Assembly: GCA_003144275.1 (NCBI GenBank)
Contig: NJBF01000021.1
Coordinates: 30,001-62,000, forward strand
DNA: 32,000 nucleotides
Reading direction: 5' to 3'
Origin: Candidatus Heimdallarchaeota archaeon B3_Heim
GTDB taxonomy: Archaea > Asgardarchaeota > Heimdallarchaeia > Hodarchaeales > Hodarchaeaceae
The first letter of the stretch is position 1, and each line of letters opens with the position of its first letter. Under the pieces are notes generated by a model, which was not told the origin of the DNA, did not search any database, and worked only from the letters and a program-made list of their open reading frames with translations. The position numbers were made by a program, and so were the translations under genes. Shown piece by piece: positions 2,626 to 9,725 of the stretch.

Positions 2626-4506
2626 TTACTTCCGTTTTCTTCTAATTATGGGGATAGAAATGAATATCGCCAACAAGAAGGTTGCAATTTCAAATCCAGG
2701 GGCTCCATCGTCTTCTGTGGTTGTTGTAGTATCAGGAACTGTGGTGGTAGTAGTTGTTTTGTAGTAACCTGGAACCTCACGAATGCCGTCACCATTGTTG
2801 TCTATATATCCTGCATTTTCTAACATTAGTTTGGCTTTCGCTACATCCAGATCATAATGTTCAATGTTTGGATTGTTATATCCAGCAAAGAATACCGAAG
2901 GAATAACGGAATCAGTGACAGTTGCATAGTCACCAAAAGCAAATTGTGCAATGGCTTGTGGATCTATTGCGTAAGCGATTGCTTTTCGTACGATTGGATC
3001 ATCTAGAGGTTTCACTGCAAAGTTAAACTGCAAATAATAGTCCCATTGAGAAACTGCTTCATTTACACACTTGATATTTGGATAGTCATTACCTGGACCA
3101 ACAGCATCTATTAATTCAGTAGACATGGTTTCATATCTCTCTGAGTCATAGAGACCACTCTGCATACCCAAGATTCGATTCATCTCTGTACCCTCAACTT
3201 GGATTGTGAAGTTCTCAATTTTGGGGTATACTCCGGCAGCTATGGGGTTGCTACTTGAGTATTGTGGCATTCCTGCTCCACCAGTGTACCAATAATCGTC
3301 ATATTGATCGAAAATGTGGAAACCAGATGAACCTCGTAAGCCAGACATATATACGAATGGACCTGTACCGACATGAGCAGCCCAGTCTGAGGGATCTTGC
3401 CATCGAGCGTCTGTAATGTTAGCACCTGCCCAAATGTGCTCAGGTAAAATACTTATGGAACCTATATCATCAACGGCGAAAGCGTAGGGTTCTGTCAAAT
3501 TAATCATGATAGTTTGACCATCAATCGCAACTGTATCAATTTTCTCGACACTTGAATAGGATGGAGTCAGAGTTCCATTTGCTACTGTAAAGTCTAGAGT
3601 AAATTTGACATCATCGGGATTTAAATCTTCACCATCGTGCCATGTAACACCAGTTCGTAATGTGAAATTAAGGTGCATTCCATCAGCTGATTGGCTCCAG
3701 CTCTCTGCTAACCAAGGAACCTTTTGGAGGGACTCATTATAAGCAATGAGGTTATCATAATGCAGATTTGCTGCAAAGCCAGAACGTGCATCTGTGTAAA
3801 GGAAGGGATTCAGATGGGTCACATCACTGGGATAAGCCATGACGAATTCTGTGGCACCACTCATATTCATAATGGTCCATGGGTTGAAACCAGTAAATAT
3901 TCCGCCAGGCATTGGTGAATAGCCAACCCATTCTTGTGTAATGAAGTGAGCATCGTTTGTCAAGAAGAGTGGAATATAAGGTAATAAATCAGCCATTAAG
4001 ACCTGTGCTTCGAATAAAGCTGCTTTCAGCTCGATTGGATTTGTAGCACTTTGACTGGCTTCTAATGCAGCATCAAGAGTATCATTGTACATAAATGCAA
4101 GGTTATCACCCCATGGATAATCTTGGGAAGAATGGCCTCGGAAATAAACATGATTGGGGATGGGTGAATAACCACCTGCCATTTCATACATCTCATAATC
4201 TCGATAATCGTTTACTACTGCACCCGCAGATTCATTTAGACGTCCCCCCTCATAAATTTGGGGGTAGAAGACAGAATCATCTAATTGAGTGACAATTACA
4301 TTCACTCCTATTTCTGCACACGCTTCCTTTATTCCTAAACCAGCATCTACGGAGATCGTATCCCAGTCTAATACTAAGAGCTCGAAAGAAAGCTCTTCTT
4401 TTTGGGGTTGTTGAGAAACTGAACCCATAACTGGAGAGGAGAGACTAGTTAGGAAAAGGATAACGAATGCTAATCCTATTAAAGAGAAAGTTGTATTTTT
4501 TTTCAT
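2626..4506 (-). CDS. Family-5 (Opp/Dpp) ABC solute-binding protein, circularly permuted, with Thr-rich linker and PGF-CTERM anchor
   Basis: Signal peptide; SBP5 motifs HLNP, PWLAESW..S.DG...FTLR.GV.WHDG...DDVKFT, VGTGPF and VRKAIAYAID; C-terminal TTTTTTVPDTTTTT-PGF-hydrophobic helix-RRKRK; SD AGGTGA upstream. Confidence 0.93.
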   Translation of the reverse strand: MKKNTTFSLIGLAFVILFLTSLSSPVMGSVSQQPQKEELSFELLVLDWDTISVDAGLGIKEACAEIGVNVIVTQLDDSVFYPQIYEGGRLNESAGAVVNDYRDYEMYEMAGGYSPIPNHVYFRGHSSQDYPWGDNLAFMYNDTLDAALEASQSATNPIELKAALFEAQVLMADLLPYIPLFLTNDAHFITQEWVGYSPMPGGIFTGFNPWTIMNMSGATEFVMAYPSDVTHLNPFLYTDARSGFAANLHYDNLIAYNESLQKVPWLAESWSQSADGMHLNFTLRTGVTWHDGEDLNPDDVKFTLDFTVANGTLTPSYSSVEKIDTVAIDGQTIMINLTEPYAFAVDDIGSISILPEHIWAGANITDARWQDPSDWAAHVGTGPFVYMSGLRGSSGFHIFDQYDDYWYTGGAGMPQYSSSNPIAAGVYPKIENFTIQVEGTEMNRILGMQSGLYDSERYETMSTELIDAVGPGNDYPNIKCVNEAVSQWDYYLQFNFAVKPLDDPIVRKAIAYAIDPQAIAQFAFGDYATVTDSVIPSVFFAGYNNPNIEHYDLDVAKAKLMLENAGYIDNNGDGIREVPGYYKTTTTTTVPDTTTTTEDDGAPGFEIATFLLAIFISIPIIRRKRK

Positions 4507-4736: not shown

Positions 4737-5807
4737 TTAGTCACAGCTAACGTAGCTTGCACCATATCGTGCTTCGAGCTCTGCTGCTTTCTTGGCACGT
4801 CTCACATGCTTTTTCCAGGAATAAATTGTGATAGCTATCGCTAAGATGGTAAAAAAGAGGATGTAAAGCGGCCACGCAAAGAAGACTAGTGGATTGTCAT
4901 ATTTATAAGGATTGTAGAGATCAAACGTTTGGACTTTTACGCTGTACTCCTTTGTGTCAAAAAAGTCTGAACTGATGAACAGATAAACTCGGGAATGATC
5001 CGTGGCTGCAGGTGTAATACACAGAATATTGATTTCGAATAGAATATGACTATTTCCTGGAAAGAGATTCAGAGAGGGGAAAGAGTCTGATGATAATGAA
5101 ACATTTTCTATCATTTTTCCACTAATATTTCCACGTAATACCGTTGAAGTAAGTTCAAGTACATTTTCATCTACCTCTACTCTGAATGTTAAATTCCTTA
5201 AGGCGGCTACTCCCTCGTTAGATATGTTATAAGTTAATTTTTGCTCCTGATTATTGAGAAGTGAAATCCGTGGAACCACAAAGCCTTCAATTTCAAGTGG
5301 GCTGCTATCTACCTTGAGGATTGGAAATTGAACCGTCATCGATCCTATCCCGTATTGTAATGTATATACCTGCCCTTCCACCTGAGTGTCTATATCTAAT
5401 CGGACTCCATCTTTGTGTAAATATACTTTATACAAAACTATTGGGTTGGTTAGAAAAGTCTGAGATCCTGTTATTATGAAACTCGTATTCTTCTCTTCTA
5501 GCTGATTGAAATCTCCAAGATCATGAACAGCTACTTCCTCCTCCGCAAAGAAGAGACCACTTTCTAAGGTTATATTAATAGACAGATTCTGATGATTTAA
5601 ATTTGATATTTCTCTTACCTCAATGGTAATATTAACTTCTTCCCAGTATTCCATTTCGCTTGGCGTTATTATTTGAAGAAAGAAATCTGCCCCAGCCTGT
5701 GAAGATTGGGGGATATTTATCTGACCATCGATGGCATGAAAATTAAGTATCATTCCGAGAAATAAACATACTAGAATAACATGTTTAACCTTCTTATTGA
5801 GTTTCAT
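4737..5807 (-). CDS. Type I membrane protein with two predicted Ig-like beta-sandwich domains (COG1361/CARDB-like)
   Basis: N-terminal signal, beta-rich ectodomain with 8 N-x-S/T sequons, C-terminal TM helix followed by KKHVRRAKK. The ATG at 5807 overlaps the oppF stop (TAATG), so it is preferred over the ORF-track start at 5822. The fold call is from pattern only. Confidence 0.7.
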   Translation of the reverse strand: MKLNKKVKHVILVCLFLGMILNFHAIDGQINIPQSSQAGADFFLQIITPSEMEYWEEVNITIEVREISNLNHQNLSINITLESGLFFAEEEVAVHDLGDFNQLEEKNTSFIITGSQTFLTNPIVLYKVYLHKDGVRLDIDTQVEGQVYTLQYGIGSMTVQFPILKVDSSPLEIEGFVVPRISLLNNQEQKLTYNISNEGVAALRNLTFRVEVDENVLELTSTVLRGNISGKMIENVSLSSDSFPSLNLFPGNSHILFEINILCITPAATDHSRVYLFISSDFFDTKEYSVKVQTFDLYNPYKYDNPLVFFAWPLYILFFTILAIAITIYSWKKHVRRAKKAAELEARYGASYVSCD

Positions 5808-6793
5808 TAATCTAACCAACATGCTGAGTACCTTCCATCTTTCATCATGAGCTCTGGTTCTTCATCAATACATTTTTCAAATTGAAAGGGGCAACGAGGA
5901 GCAAATCTGCATCCTGGCGGTAAATTAATTGCAGTGGGGATTTCCCCCTCAATTTCTATCCTTTCTCGTTTAGCATCAGGATCTGGTACAGGGATGTTTG
6001 AAATCAGAGCTTTTGAATATGGGTGGTGCGGGTTTTGTATAACTTGGTCAATGTTTCCTTTTTCCACAATTTTTCCCAAGTATAAAATTATGATGCGATG
6101 CCCCAAATATCTAGCTTGGGCTAAATCATGCGTAATGAACAAAATACCCATATTGTAGGCTGCTTGTAAATCTTGAAGCAGATTTAGAATTTCTATCCTC
6201 GTATTTGCGTCAAGCATGCTCGCAGGTTCGTCAGCAATAATAAATTCTGGGTCCAATACTAACGCACGAGCAATAGATACCCTTTGTCGCTGACCGCCTG
6301 ATAATTCATGAGGGAACCTTATACTGAATTCTGAGACAGGAATTAATCCCACGTCTTCCAATGCTTTAGCTACTCGTTTATGAGTTTCCGATTTTGGAAA
6401 AACATTTGTAACTTGCAGAGGTTCTGAAATCACATCATAGATGGTCATTCTTGGATCCAAAGATTCATAGGGATTCTGAAAAATCATTTGCATGTGTCTG
6501 CGTAATTTTCGTATTTGCCGTTCTTTTACTTTTGCTATGTCTTTTCCCTTGTAAATGATCTCTCCACCGGTTGGATCTTCCAATCTAAGTAATAATCTCG
6601 CAGCAGTAGTTTTACCTGACCCACTTTCACCGACTAGACAGACTACCTCACCCTGCTTTATCTCAAAAGAAATATCATCGACAGCTCTTACATATTCTTG
6701 TCTTCTACGAATTCCGTCTAGCAAACCAGTTCGAGTCGGAAACCATTTTCTGAGATCCTTGATTGTAAATAGAATTTTTGTAGTAGAACTCAT
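5807..6793 (-). CDS. oppF: Oligopeptide/dipeptide ABC transporter ATP-binding subunit
   Basis: Walker A GESGSGKT, signature LSGGQRQR, Walker B IIADEP, and an oligo_HPY C-terminal domain (HPYSKAL; GCRFAPRCP). Start set at 6793 (MSSTTK), which forms an ATGA overlap with the oppD stop. Confidence 0.93.
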
Positions 6794-7776
6794 AATATCG
6801 TCTCTCCTGCATGAAAACATGCAACGTGATGTCTAGAGGTAGAAAAAGGCTCAAATGGAGGGATATCTTTCCTACATTCTTTTGTTGCCAATGGACACCG
6901 AGGATGAAAACGACAACCTGGTGGTGGATTTGCTAAATCGGGGGGAATTCCAGATATCGGTTCAATGCGTTTGCATTCACCCAATATACTTGGGAATGAT
7001 CTAATTAACATTCTTGTGTAGGGATGAGCACCTTTGTGGAATACCGTAGAAGCATCTCCGACTTCTACCATCTTTCCAGCGTACATGATTGCAACATCAT
7101 CACATGATTCAGCAATTACACTTAAATCATGGGTTATAAACATGATTCCAAGATTATAATTGGATTGAATTTCGTTTAAAAGCTTTAAAATCTTTTTTTC
7201 CACAATTACATCTAATGCAGTAACAGGTTCGTCTGCTATTAGCAGCTTTGGATCACAAGCCATTGCCATAGCTATTATTGCTCTTTGTTTCATCCCACCA
7301 GAAAATTCATGGGGATAGTTTTTAATTCGGTCGGGGTCCAATCCAACGATTTCAAATGATTCTTTGACTTTTTTCCAGGCTTCTTTTTTTCCTGATTTTG
7401 ATTTTGAATTTTCTTTCTCAATAATTACTTCTGCGATTTGTTCTCCCACAGTCATCACAGGATTAAAAGCATTCATTGCATATTGAAAAACATAAGAAAG
7501 TTCTTTCCATTTGGCTTTCCTCATTTCTTCCTTTGACTTCTTTAGAAGATCAACACCATCTAAAAAAATCTCTCCATTTACAATTTTTCCAGCTGGAGGA
7601 AGCATTCGCATAATAGACAAGGCTGTTGTTGTCTTCCCACAACCACTTTCACCAGCCACTCCCAGAGTTTTCCCTTGATCAATAGTAAAACAAACATCAT
7701 CAACTGCCCTCACACGTGATTCTTTCAGGAAAAAATGAGTGCTTAGATTCTTTACTTCAAGTAAAACCATAATCAT
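6790..7776 (-). CDS. oppD: Oligopeptide/dipeptide ABC transporter ATP-binding subunit
   Basis: [40 protein letters not shown] overlap with the permease stop. Confidence 0.93.
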
Positions 7777-8699: not shown

Positions 8700-9725
8700 T
8701 CAGTAGCGAATTCGGGGGTCTAAATAAGCATAAATTATATCTGCAATAAAACTTGACACGATTGCGACAGCTGCGACAAGTAAGAATAACCCTTGAAGTA
8801 ATGGGTAGTCTGAATATGTAACTGCGTCAAATGTTAGTAGACCCAATCCATCCCAAGAAAATACAGTTTCAGTTAGGGTTGCACCGGAAACAAGATAGGT
8901 CATTGCCATTGCCAACACAGATATCATGGGTAACATGGCATTTTTTCGGGCGTGGGTAAAGAGAACTCTTCTTTCCTTTAATCCCTTAGCACGCGCAGTA
9001 GTTATGTAATCTTCGAGAAATATCCCAAGCATTTGATCCCGGGCAATTAAGAACCACGCCCCAACAAAACTTATAGTTAACGTAGTTACAGGGCCGATTA
9101 AATGATAACCATAATCTATCGCCCAAGCGAAAATATCGGCGTATTTAGGATCTTCAATACGGGGAGATCCTGATAATGGTATGAGGTGGAATTGACCAAA
9201 GAAATAAAAAATAATTAGCATACCAAGCCAGAAAACGGGGGTTGAATAGCTTGTAAGGGTAACAAAAATTGAAACTAAGTCTGTTTTTGATTTGAACTTT
9301 GACGCAGCGATAGTACCAAAAATTATTGCTAGAACAAATGATAAAAGAATCGATATTCCCATCAGTAGAATGGTATTGAGTAGTCGATGACCGAAAATTA
9401 GTTCAGATACCTCAGTTGGATAGTAGTAGAATGAGACACCTAAATCTCCTTCTAATAAACGCTGTATATATATAATGAATTGGTCAAAGATTGGTAAATT
9501 CGTCCCATAACGTTCTTGTAGCACCTGACGGAATTCCGGTCTAACTTGTCCTGTTCTTCCCAAAACAGCAAGAGCAGGGTTTCCAGGCATGATACGAAAT
9601 AACACGAAATTAAATATTACAGTTATAATTAGTAAAAATCCACTATCAAATGCTCTACGAGAGATATATCCTTTTAAACTCAATTTGTCCAACTTTTTCT
9701 TGCCAATTTTTAGTTTAGAGCGCAA
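8700..9725 (-). CDS. oppB: Oligopeptide/dipeptide ABC permease (OppB/DppB type)
   Basis: RIMPGNP, GDLGVSF, STPVFWLG, EDYITTARAKGL, TETVFSWDGLG, DYPLLQG, YLDPRIR. TTG start. Confidence 0.93.
   Translation of the reverse strand: MRSKLKIGKKKLDKLSLKGYISRRAFDSGFLLIITVIFNFVLFRIMPGNPALAVLGRTGQVRPEFRQVLQERYGTNLPIFDQFIIYIQRLLEGDLGVSFYYYPTEVSELIFGHRLLNTILLMGISILLSFVLAIIFGTIAASKFKSKTDLVSIFVTLTSYSTPVFWLGMLIIFYFFGQFHLIPLSGSPRIEDPKYADIFAWAIDYGYHLIGPVTTLTISFVGAWFLIARDQMLGIFLEDYITTARAKGLKERRVLFTHARKNAMLPMISVLAMAMTYLVSGATLTETVFSWDGLGLLTFDAVTYSDYPLLQGLFLLVAAVAIVSSFIADIIYAYLDPRIRY

What the first reader, a model, noticed from the sequence alone, without database searches (positions are those of the whole stretch)
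2626..4506. Circularly permuted family-5 solute-binding protein
Seen in sequence: residues ~38-215 (LSFELL...IKEACAEIGVNV...GHSSQ...NLAFMYNDTLDAALE...QVLMADLLPYIPL...WVGYSPMPGG) match what is normally the C-terminal third of OppA/DppA-type proteins. The normal N-terminus (EFVMAYPSDVTHLNP...PWLAESW..DG..FTLR..WHDG) begins only at about S216 (nt ~3861). The domain ends at AKAKLMLENAGYIDNNGDGIRE, the loop that canonically leads into the LxFxLL strand found here at the N-terminus. This is a clean circular permutation cut at the DxxGDGxRE loop. Inference: the permutation moves the termini so that the protein is tethered by a C-terminal sortase anchor from a different lobe, which could change docking to the permease.
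Basis: partly seen in the sequence, partly recalled or inferred. Interest (0 to 1): 0.75.

Follow-up and report, generated by a model that had tools for sequence, protein, structure and literature searches.

The report
Circularly permuted archaeal transporter binding protein
This Asgard-archaeal gene encodes the nutrient-capturing subunit of a peptide-type ABC importer whose last third has moved to the front of the chain, and close relatives show that this swap has happened repeatedly, once so recently that nearly identical operons carry both orders.

Summary
ORF window:2626-4506 (-) encodes 626 aa. Residues 36-215 correspond to the C-terminal third of family-5 (cluster C) solute-binding proteins. 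Residues 220-581 correspond to the N-terminal two thirds.

The evidence is sequence matches to canonical-order relatives (E about 1e-45), a profile search of PDB, and two AlphaFold models. The gene is the last of a complete Opp/Dpp-type operon and is under purifying selection.

The "sortase anchor" is a Heimdall-CTERM signal, and its cognate heimdallarchaeosortase is present in the genome.

The anchor-driven explanation is not supported:
- A canonical paralogue in the same genome carries the same tail.
- Canonical relatives also have C-terminal anchors.
- Bacterial relatives with the same permutation have N-terminal lipoprotein or TAT signals and end exactly at the cut loop.

New here:
- Chain order changed at least three times among close archaeal relatives (AU tests).
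- One permuted/canonical pair is 85-89% identical, in syntenic operons about 90% identical in DNA.
- A second cut site and tandem double-core fusions also exist.

This scan has already reported permuted family-5 binding proteins on other DNA. I found no paper describing them.

The parts
2626..4506 (-). Whole gene: circularly permuted family-5 (cluster C) solute-binding protein, 626 aa plus stop
   Evidence: ORF list and translation. PF00496 scores 194 bits on residues 263-596 only. dN/dS is 0.086 against the Hodarchaeota homologue L007.
4423..4506 (-). Sec-type signal peptide, residues 1-28 (basic N-end, hydrophobic core, ...PVMG then S)
   Evidence: Read from the sequence. Modelled as a lone helix 3-23 followed by a low-confidence stretch 20-31. 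The cleavage site is inferred.
3862..4401 (-). Segment B, residues 36-215: equivalent of the canonical C-terminal third (second part of domain III plus the last domain I elements)
   Evidence: BLASTP to residues ~374-555 of canonical relatives, E 1e-45 to 1e-51. Profile hits on the C-terminal thirds of PDB chains. The model of this segment alone aligns to AppA 357-508 and DppA 341-480, Z about 10.
3850..3861 (-). Short linker (residues 216-219, S-G-A-T) joining the old C-terminus to the old N-terminus
   Evidence: Alignment with canonical relatives. pLDDT is above 90 across residues 200-230. A contig from an independent sediment run bridges this junction (X1 record 4, 3764-4022).
2764..3849 (-). 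Segment A, residues 220-581: equivalent of the canonical N-terminal two thirds (domain I, domain II, first part of domain III). It ends at the AGYIDNNGDGIREVPG loop.
   Evidence: PF00496 profile positions 3-300. VIA alignment of residues 214-582 to AppA 18-359, NikZ 2-330 and DppA 1-345, Z 21-24.
2707..2763 (-). Thr-rich, low-confidence linker, residues 582-600
   Evidence: Sequence. pLDDT is below 50 for residues 583-607.
2629..2706 (-). Heimdall-CTERM sorting signal and membrane anchor, residues 601-626 (GAPGF, hydrophobic helix, RRKRK)
   Evidence: NF045529 scores 25.2 bits (cut-off 24) in the six-frame genome search at this exact place. It scores 19.2 bits in the whole-protein hmmscan. The cognate heimdallarchaeosortase is at L001:1126-1896.
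8700..9725 (-). Permease, DppB/OppB type; first gene of the operon
   Evidence: PF00528 plus PF19300
7776..8690 (-). Permease, DppC/OppC type
   Evidence: PF00528 plus PF12911 OppC_N
6790..7776 (-). ATPase, OppD type
   Evidence: PF00005 plus PF08352 oligo_HPY
5807..6820 (-). ATPase, OppF type
   Evidence: PF00005 plus PF08352 oligo_HPY
4737..5822 (-). 361-aa membrane protein of no known family, between the ATPase gene and the binding-protein gene. It overlaps the ATPase gene by 16 nt.
   Evidence: ORF list. No Pfam family.

Best explanation
The gene encodes the extracellular substrate-binding subunit of an Opp/Dpp-type ABC importer of a Hodarchaeota-like Asgard archaeon.

What it is. The protein is a natural circular permutant of the cluster C (Pfam SBP_bac_5) fold. 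Its parts, in order, are:
1. Signal peptide.
2. Segment B, the canonical C-terminal third.
3. A four-residue linker.
4. Segment A, the canonical N-terminal two thirds.
5. A Thr-rich linker.
6. A Heimdall-CTERM anchor.

Both hinge crossings are intact, because the cut lies in a surface loop inside lobe 2 (domain III). The predicted three-domain fold is therefore the ordinary one. The protein most likely works as an ordinary Venus-flytrap receptor that hands its unknown ligand to the permeases encoded upstream. It would do this while tethered to the cell surface after processing by the genome's heimdallarchaeosortase.

What is shown and what is inferred. The permutation, the fold prediction, the operon, the purifying selection and the presence of the sorting system are shown. 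Ligand binding, docking and processing are inferred.

How it arose. The permutation is old in this lineage. It is one of several independent order changes in the family, all at the same loop. These most likely arose by internal tandem duplication of the core followed by loss of the outer pieces, and they appear to be functionally near-neutral rather than adaptations to the anchor.
For: Permutation:
- Split BLASTP against canonical-order relatives.
- Profile search of PDB.
- Complementary structural alignments of the whole model and of segment B alone.
- All top-60 solved chains have the canonical order.

Functionality:
- The whole-protein AlphaFold model has pLDDT 88.9 and pTM 0.83, with high confidence across the new junction.
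- dN/dS is 0.05-0.09 in both segments against a 77%-identical homologue.
- A complete B-C-D-F operon lies on the same strand.
- 67 other 90%-identity clusters share the same order.
- Contigs 95-99% identical to the gene occur in three RNA-seq libraries from sediment, a weak hint of expression.

Anchor: Heimdall-CTERM and heimdallarchaeosortase are both present.

Recurrence:
- Monophyly of the permuted forms is rejected, p-AU 2e-80. It is still rejected at 8.5e-5 after removing the most recent group.
- P0022 (permuted) and P0045 (canonical) are 85-89% identical in signal peptide, both core segments and tail.
- Their close relatives' operons (L004 and L006) are collinear at about 90% DNA identity, apart from the swapped segments.

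Duplication model: tandem double-core proteins exist, namely P0143 (26 cluster members, Methanophagales) and P0147.

Independence from the anchor.
Against: - There is no experimental structure.
- I could not run a permutation-aware aligner on coordinates. The placement of segment B within the whole fold therefore rests on AlphaFold confidence and on two separate alignments.
- The ligand is unknown. NCBIfam equivalog models all score far below their cut-offs.
- Transcription is not shown, because RNA libraries can contain DNA.
- The Heimdall-CTERM score is below cut-off in the whole-protein scan (19.2 against 24), although above it in the genome scan.
- No duplicated intermediate was found among the closest relatives, and a search for longer relatives found none.
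- Near-neutrality is an inference from distribution, not a measurement.
Confidence: 0.88

Rival explanations
1. Adaptive tether geometry. The permutation was selected because it moves the C-terminal anchor to lobe 2, which changes how the tethered receptor docks on the permease.
For: The termini do move from domain I to a loop in domain III (plus domain limits recalled from the DppA and OppA structure papers). All archaeal members of the window's clade are C-terminally anchored. The same idea was raised for the permuted glucose receptor TpMglB-2 (PMC4990184).
Against: - The canonical paralogue in the same genome uses the same Heimdall-CTERM tail.
- All canonical relatives examined are also C-terminally anchored.
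- P0022 and P0045 keep the same signal peptide and the same 200-aa tail and anchor despite having opposite orders.
- Relatives with this permutation that carry TAT or lipoprotein signals, several of them named as bacterial, have no C-terminal anchor at all.
- The linker to the anchor is about 20-25 disordered residues, which should decouple the geometry.
Confidence: 0.1
2. Non-functional product: a fusion of fragments of two binding-protein genes, a decaying pseudogene, or a metagenome mis-assembly.
For: Pfam covers only part of the protein, and the N-terminal segment alone hits no family.
Against: - The frame is intact, with a signal peptide and an anchor.
- dN/dS is 0.05-0.09 in both segments.
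- The same order is found in 67 other clusters from many samples and sources.
- An independent run's contig bridges the junction.
- The model is confident and compact.
Confidence: 0.02
3. A single ancient permutation. The apparent recurrence would then come from segment-wise gene conversion between co-resident canonical and permuted paralogues, not from new rearrangements.
For: - Both orders can occur in one genome. The window genome has 3 canonical genes and 1 permuted gene.
- The cut site is the same in all lineages.
- With the two nested permuted groups removed, monophyly of the remaining permuted forms is not rejected, p-AU 0.30.
Against: - Divergence between P0022 and P0045 is uniform (85-89%) across signal peptide, both segments and tail.
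- The flanking operon genes are about 90% identical and syntenic between the permuted P0022 locus (L004) and the canonical P0038 locus (L006). This fits orthologous loci with an in-place swap.
- Conversion from a donor sharing only about 40% protein identity with the nearest other permuted genes is mechanistically unlikely.
Confidence: 0.1

Closest known systems
Canonical cluster C / Pfam PF00496 binding proteins (B. subtilis AppA 1xoc, E. coli DppA 1dpp and 8z1z, C. jejuni NikZ 4oet, OppA 1ola)
   Same: The same three-domain fold by prediction (Z 21-24 over ~320-336 residues, plus Z ~10 over ~135-139 residues for the remaining third). The same operon partners, namely two permeases and two ATPases with the oligo_HPY domain.
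   Different: The chain order is rotated. What is residue ~346 to the end in DppA comes first here. All top-60 solved relatives have the canonical order. The two DppA residues that bind the dipeptide and the DppB scoop loop (R383, D436; PMC12136057) fall in the segment that is N-terminal here (ranges). Whether equivalents exist in this protein was not established.
TpMglB-2 (Tp0684) of Treponema pallidum, 'Cluster Bc' (PMC4990184)
   Same: A natural, conserved circular permutant of an ABC-importer binding protein that still binds its ligand. Its authors also asked whether tethering explains the topology.
   Different: It belongs to a different structural cluster (B, sugar-binding, type I), an unrelated family and a different cut. 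No recurrence or canonical near-twin was reported there.
Archaeal Opp-class binding proteins with an N-terminal signal peptide, a Ser/Thr-rich linker and a C-terminal membrane anchor (described for Sulfolobus; recalled from the literature, not checked here)
   Same: The same overall layout of signal peptide, core, hydroxyl-rich linker and C-terminal anchor.
   Different: The core order is permuted. The anchor is a Heimdall-CTERM sorting signal rather than a plain transmembrane helix.
PGF-CTERM / archaeosortase A system (Haloferax, Methanosarcina)
   Same: A tripartite C-terminal signal (PGF-like motif, hydrophobic helix, basic tail) preceded by a Thr-rich region. The processing enzyme belongs to the exosortase/archaeosortase family (TIGR04178 signature 37.4 bits).
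   Different: The PGF-CTERM model does not match this tail. ArtA scores 21 bits against a cut-off of 75. The specific models that do match are Heimdall-CTERM and heimdallarchaeosortase.
Permutation by duplication, as proposed for DNA methyltransferases and saposin/swaposin (recalled, not checked here)
   Same: Canonical, permuted and tandem-duplicated forms of one fold all exist in nature.
   Different: Here the signal peptide and tail stay in place while only the core rotates. The same loop is used repeatedly. One pair is still 85-89% identical.

Membership tests
Pfam PF00496 SBP_bac_5 / cluster C solute-binding proteins | Significant match to the family profile | tested here: met
   194.1 bits against a cut-off of 32.4, on residues 263-596 only.
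Pfam PF00496 SBP_bac_5 / cluster C solute-binding proteins | All parts of the three-domain fold are present | tested here: met
   Residues 214-582 align to AppA 18-359 (Z 24.1). Residues 36-190 align to AppA 357-508 (Z 10.3). The profile of segment B hits 83 PDB chains. These are predicted structures, not solved ones.
Pfam PF00496 SBP_bac_5 / cluster C solute-binding proteins | Chain order collinear with the family | tested here: not met
   The profile stops at position 300 of 368 at the core's end, and the remainder lies at the N-terminus. This is the finding itself: a homologue with rotated order.
Pfam PF00496 SBP_bac_5 / cluster C solute-binding proteins | Encoded with Opp/Dpp-type permeases and ATPases | tested here: met
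   Permeases carrying BPD_transp_1 (one with OppC_N) and two ATPases with ABC_tran plus oligo_HPY lie on the same strand.
Pfam PF00496 SBP_bac_5 / cluster C solute-binding proteins | Binds a ligand and stimulates its translocator | not testable with these tools
   This needs purified protein (DSF, ITC) and transport assays.
Heimdall-CTERM / heimdallarchaeosortase sorting system | C-terminal signal matches NF045529 | tested here: met
   25.2 bits (cut-off 24) at window 2629-2706 in the genome scan. Caveat: 19.2 bits in the whole-protein scan. The sequence shows PGF, a hydrophobic helix and RRKRK.
Heimdall-CTERM / heimdallarchaeosortase sorting system | Cognate sortase present in the genome, with many substrates | tested here: met
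   NF045528 scores 277.9 bits against a cut-off of 130 at L001:1126-1896. There are 25 Heimdall-CTERM matches in the genome, 17 over the cut-off.
Heimdall-CTERM / heimdallarchaeosortase sorting system | The tail is actually cleaved and the protein lipid-anchored | not testable with these tools
   This needs proteomics of the organism or a heterologous system.
   The tail reads ...EDDGAPGFEIATFLL...RRKRK and contains no LPXTG.
PGF-CTERM / archaeosortase A | Match to TIGR04126 and presence of ArtA (TIGR04125) | tested here: not met
   TIGR04126 has a single sub-threshold hit elsewhere in the genome and none at this tail. ArtA scores 21 bits against a cut-off of 75.
TpMglB-2-like 'Cluster Bc' permuted binding proteins | Cluster B (MglB-like) fold with its specific permutation | tested here: not met
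   All sequence and fold matches are to cluster C family-5 proteins. The resemblance is in kind (a natural permutation), not in family.

The most novel reading that the evidence does not exclude
Family-5 binding proteins toggle between chain orders. The canonical and permuted forms have interconverted many times at the same one or two permissive loops. This may include at least one reversion from permuted back to canonical: the canonical 28-row clade sits inside permuted lineages in the free tree. It also includes one swap recent enough to be studied at the DNA level, between syntenic operons about 90% identical. That would make this the clearest natural system for watching how a circular permutation arises. 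The open question is whether the route is duplication followed by two deletions, or a one-step rearrangement that leaves the signal peptide and tail in place.
Probability: 0.35. Interest if true: 0.8.

Novelty: new variant of a known kind. Interest (0 to 1): 0.62.

Why it matters
Cluster C binding proteins are textbook receptors, and all of the best 60 solved relatives listed (108 chains matched) have one chain order. A large, conserved set of natural permutants shows that the fold tolerates opening at a loop inside lobe 2. The set spans Asgard, Bathyarchaeota and Sulfolobales archaea and, by source names, Clostridia, Proteobacteria and Methylomirabilia. A second cut site lies at the domain II to domain I boundary.

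This matters in four ways:
- Annotation. Pfam covers only part of these proteins, and some are named 'hypothetical'.
- Biosensor engineering. These are natural, pre-validated sites for new termini.
- Folding studies of bilobed receptors.
- Protein evolution. Canonical and permuted near-twins (85-89% identical) in syntenic operons, together with tandem double-core fusions, give matched natural pairs. With them one can test whether permutation changes ligand binding, stability or docking, and how it arises.

The comparison also removes the attractive but unsupported idea that the membrane anchor drives the permutation.

Tried and rejected
- Segment 28-225 alone against Pfam and NCBIfam gave nothing relevant. 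As a single sequence against PDB it gave only a weak top hit: 2d5w C-terminal part, E 0.16. A profile was needed.
- The genome-contig scan was swamped by canonical bacterial proteins. Rows that seemed to cover residues ~40-580 were canonical, with the C part lying before the N part, when checked by tblastn. Only the Hodarchaeota locus L007 was permuted.
- A search for relatives longer than 1096 aa, looking for duplicated intermediates close to the window protein, found none at E 1e-20. The tool itself says this is weak evidence.
- Reversion from permuted to canonical is suggested by the free trees but is not established. With the two nested permuted groups removed, holding the remaining permuted rows together is not rejected (p-AU 0.30).
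- The PGF-CTERM and ArtA models and Pfam Exosortase_EpsH did not match. The Heimdall-specific models did.
- Literature searches for a natural permutation in OppA, DppA, cluster C or PF00496 found none. The library lacks many subscription papers.
- The DppABCDF paper gave ligand and scoop-loop contacts but no lobe boundaries. I could not place the new termini relative to the permease face.
- RNA libraries: contigs cover parts of the gene but do not prove transcription. The lack of cover over the other operon genes is not evidence.
- The upstream binding-protein gene in L003 is a distant canonical paralogue (26% identity) and is not a partner in the swap.
- The 'A-N-D' residues shared by the P0022 internal linker and the P0038 signal-peptide end may be a relic of duplication. 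The match is too short to count.
Full report
**The gene**

ORF window:2626-4506 (-) encodes 626 aa. It is the last gene of a same-strand cluster:
- two permeases, one DppB-like and one with OppC_N;
- two ATPases with the oligo_HPY domain;
- a 361-aa membrane protein of no known family;
- this binding protein.

Its closest named relatives are from Hodarchaeota. L007 (isolate YT1_021) is 77% identical, and P0007-P0009 are 46-48% identical. The genome has 25 Heimdall-CTERM tails and a heimdallarchaeosortase. The host is therefore an Asgard archaeon of the Heimdall/Hodarchaeota group. The assembly is 3.95 Mb, 94% complete.

**Checking the observation**

Pfam PF00496 covers only residues 263-596, on profile positions 3-300 of 368. 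Full-length NCBIfam models end near residue 580, about two thirds of the way through their length. The N-terminal segment alone hits no family.

Among 120 relatives, splitting the protein at residue ~216 gives two classes:
- In 67 clusters both pieces match in the same order as the window protein.
- In 48 clusters the window's C part matches residues ~33-375 and its N part matches residues ~375-555, at E 1e-45 to 1e-51.

These 48 are canonical. Pfam reads them straight through: P0018 on profile 1-359 and P0045 on profile 2-352.

A profile of the N-part family hits 83 solved family-5 proteins, all in their C-terminal third. Examples are AppA 359-508 (E 2.8e-25) and DppA 362-497.

The AlphaFold model of the whole protein is confident (pLDDT 88.9, pTM 0.83), including across the new junction. 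Its residues 214-582 align to AppA 18-359, NikZ 2-330 and DppA 1-345, with Z 21-24. The N part modelled alone (pLDDT 72.9) aligns over residues 36-190 to AppA 357-508 and DppA 341-480, with Z about 10. All 50 listed rows are C-terminal thirds of family-5 chains.

The two alignments are exactly complementary, so this is a circular permutation. The cut is in the loop after the '...AGY' helix. Canonical P0018 runs continuously through 'DGDGIREFPG-QPDKE-LRFDMMVLSWD'. The window protein ends its core at 'DGIREVPG' and begins its mature chain at 'KEELSFELLVLDWD'.

By the DppA domain limits as I recall them (domain III = 263-478), the cut at ~345 lies inside lobe 2. Both hinge crossings remain intact.

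**Is it a working gene?**

- The frame is intact, with a signal peptide and an anchor.
- dN/dS against the 77%-identical Hodarchaeota gene is 0.086 overall, 0.051 for segment B and 0.083 for segment A. dS is about 1.5, so it is saturated and the ratios are approximate.
- The order is shared by 67 other 90%-identity clusters from ENA, JGI, NCBI and Logan.
- An independent sediment run has a contig that bridges the junction.
- Three RNA-seq libraries from one sediment study hold contigs 95-99% identical to parts of the gene. This is only a hint of expression.

The ligand is unknown. Every NCBIfam equivalog (Opp4A, NikA, GsiB and others) scores far below its cut-off.

**The anchor**

The tail matches NCBIfam Heimdall-CTERM. 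It scores 25.2 bits (cut-off 24) in the genome scan and 19.2 bits in the whole-protein scan. It does not match PGF-CTERM. The genome encodes a heimdallarchaeosortase scoring 277.9 bits against a cut-off of 130. 'Sortase' should therefore read 'archaeosortase-family enzyme'.

**Does the anchor explain the permutation?**

The comparative data say no.
- The genome has four PF00496 genes. The other three are canonical (profile 1-364, 2-364 and 3-357). The one on contig C47 carries the same Heimdall-CTERM tail.
- All canonical archaeal relatives also have a signal peptide and a C-terminal anchor.
- In the library of 50%-identity representatives, about 20 more distant clusters show the same permutation. 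Pfam confirms it for P0163, P0176, P0185, P0191 and P0195, where profile positions 1-285 lie at residues ~260-546.
- These clusters have TAT or lipoprotein N-termini and no C-terminal anchor. They end exactly at the cut loop ('...AGY.WD..G.L.YP'). Source names include Methylomirabilia, Clostridiales/Tissierellia/Sedimentibacter, Delta- and Alphaproteobacteria.

So the tether point does move to lobe 2, but permutation and anchor type vary independently.

**Recurrence**

I rotated the permuted cores back to canonical order and built trees.
- Careful tree, 58 rows, four canonical outgroups: chain order needs 4-6 changes, and no bootstrap tree needs only one.
- Holding all permuted rows together costs 393 log-likelihood units, p-AU 2e-80.
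- After removing P0020/P0022/P0023, monophyly is still rejected, p-AU 8.5e-5.
- After also removing P0016/P0056/P0095, it is not rejected, p-AU 0.30.

At least three independent order changes are therefore supported. A reversion to canonical order is suggested by the free tree but not established.

A quick tree of 156 rows needs 12 changes among three states. It places the 19-row lipoprotein/TAT-type permuted clade apart from the archaeal one, with weak backbone support.

**A recent swap**

P0022 (permuted, 761 aa) and P0045 (canonical, 761 aa) are 85-89% identical in four separate pieces:
- signal peptide, 1-38 to 1-38;
- P0022 36-203 to P0045 389-556;
- P0022 201-568 to P0045 30-399;
- tail, 562-761 to 563-761.

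P0022 is only 39% identical to the window protein. P0022 occurs on four contigs from three samples, and P0020, P0023 and P0109 share its order.

The P0022 operon (L004) and the operon of the canonical P0038 (L006) have identical gene order: binding protein, two permeases, two ATPases, divergent Usp. They are collinear at about 90% DNA identity upstream and for 5.9 kb downstream. Only the two core segments are exchanged.

The cut and the rejoined termini are at the same positions as in the window protein.

A second pair is P0016 (permuted) and P0106 (canonical), at 62-65% identity in both segments.

**Other orders, and a likely route**

A second permutation has its cut at canonical residue ~218-225, the domain II to domain I boundary. 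It is seen in 13 representatives; P0161's cluster includes Bathyarchaeota entries.

Tandem fusions also exist:
- P0143 (1016 aa, Methanophagales, 26 cluster members) holds two complete canonical cores.
- P0147 (2427 aa) holds repeated units of the second permuted order.

These fit the classical route of internal duplication of the core followed by loss of the outer pieces. No intermediate was found next to the recent swap.

**What is known already**

All of the best 60 solved relatives are canonical. The only natural permutation of an ABC binding protein that I found in the literature library is TpMglB-2, in cluster B (PMC4990184). Searches aimed at OppA, DppA, cluster C and PF00496 found nothing.

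This scan has itself reported permuted family-5 binding proteins in other genomes, from Thorarchaeota, Actinomycetota, Chloroflexota and Acidimicrobiia, with various cut sites. Those reports also found no published description. One note says the permuted form is the standard one in Asgard archaea. In this genome it is one gene of four.

**Verdict**

The anchor-based explanation is not supported. The gene is an ordinary-looking, selected member of a large and apparently undescribed permuted branch of a very well known family. The added value lies in the evidence for repeated changes of chain order and in the near-identical natural pair.

Noticed in passing
window:4737-5822 (-): A 361-aa protein with an N-terminal hydrophobic segment, many N-x-S/T sites and a C-terminal membrane helix plus basic tail. 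It sits between the OppF-type ATPase gene and the binding-protein gene, overlaps the ATPase gene by 16 nt, and hits no Pfam family.
   Followed up: partly
window:163-1278 (+) and window:1335-2483 (-): An AstE/AspA-type deacylase (PF24827, 77 bits) and a family III CoA-transferase (PF02515, 264 bits) lie next to the transporter operon. Whether they are linked to its substrate is unknown.
   Followed up: partly
G000:C57 (L001:1126-1896) and 25 places in the genome: A heimdallarchaeosortase gene (NF045528, 277.9 bits) and 25 Heimdall-CTERM tails (17 over the cut-off). One of these is an open frame of 3052 aa on contig C87. Two more are on the window's own contig, outside the window.
   Followed up: partly
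P0132, P0156, P0161, P0179, P0183, P0184, P0194, P0203, P0211, P0226, P0239, P0246: A second kind of circular permutant of the same fold. Its cut is at the domain II to domain I boundary (Pfam profile position ~145). Most form one clade beside the first kind, and the examples inspected have C-terminal membrane anchors.
   Followed up: partly
P0143 (1016 aa) and P0147 (2427 aa): Natural tandem fusions. P0143 (Methanophagales, 26 cluster members) has two complete canonical family-5 cores behind one lipoprotein signal. P0147 has repeated units of the second permuted order plus PKD and Ig-like domains.
   Followed up: partly
L003:502-7334: In the contig carrying the permuted P0022, a second complete Opp-type operon lies directly upstream. 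Its binding protein is a distant canonical one with PKD domains. The two operons are separated by a divergent Usp gene.
   Followed up: partly
P0011 (1036 aa, Thorarchaeota): A permuted core of the window's type followed by about 440 extra residues with Y_Y_Y (PF07495) and Big_13 (PF19077) domains before the membrane anchor.
   Followed up: no
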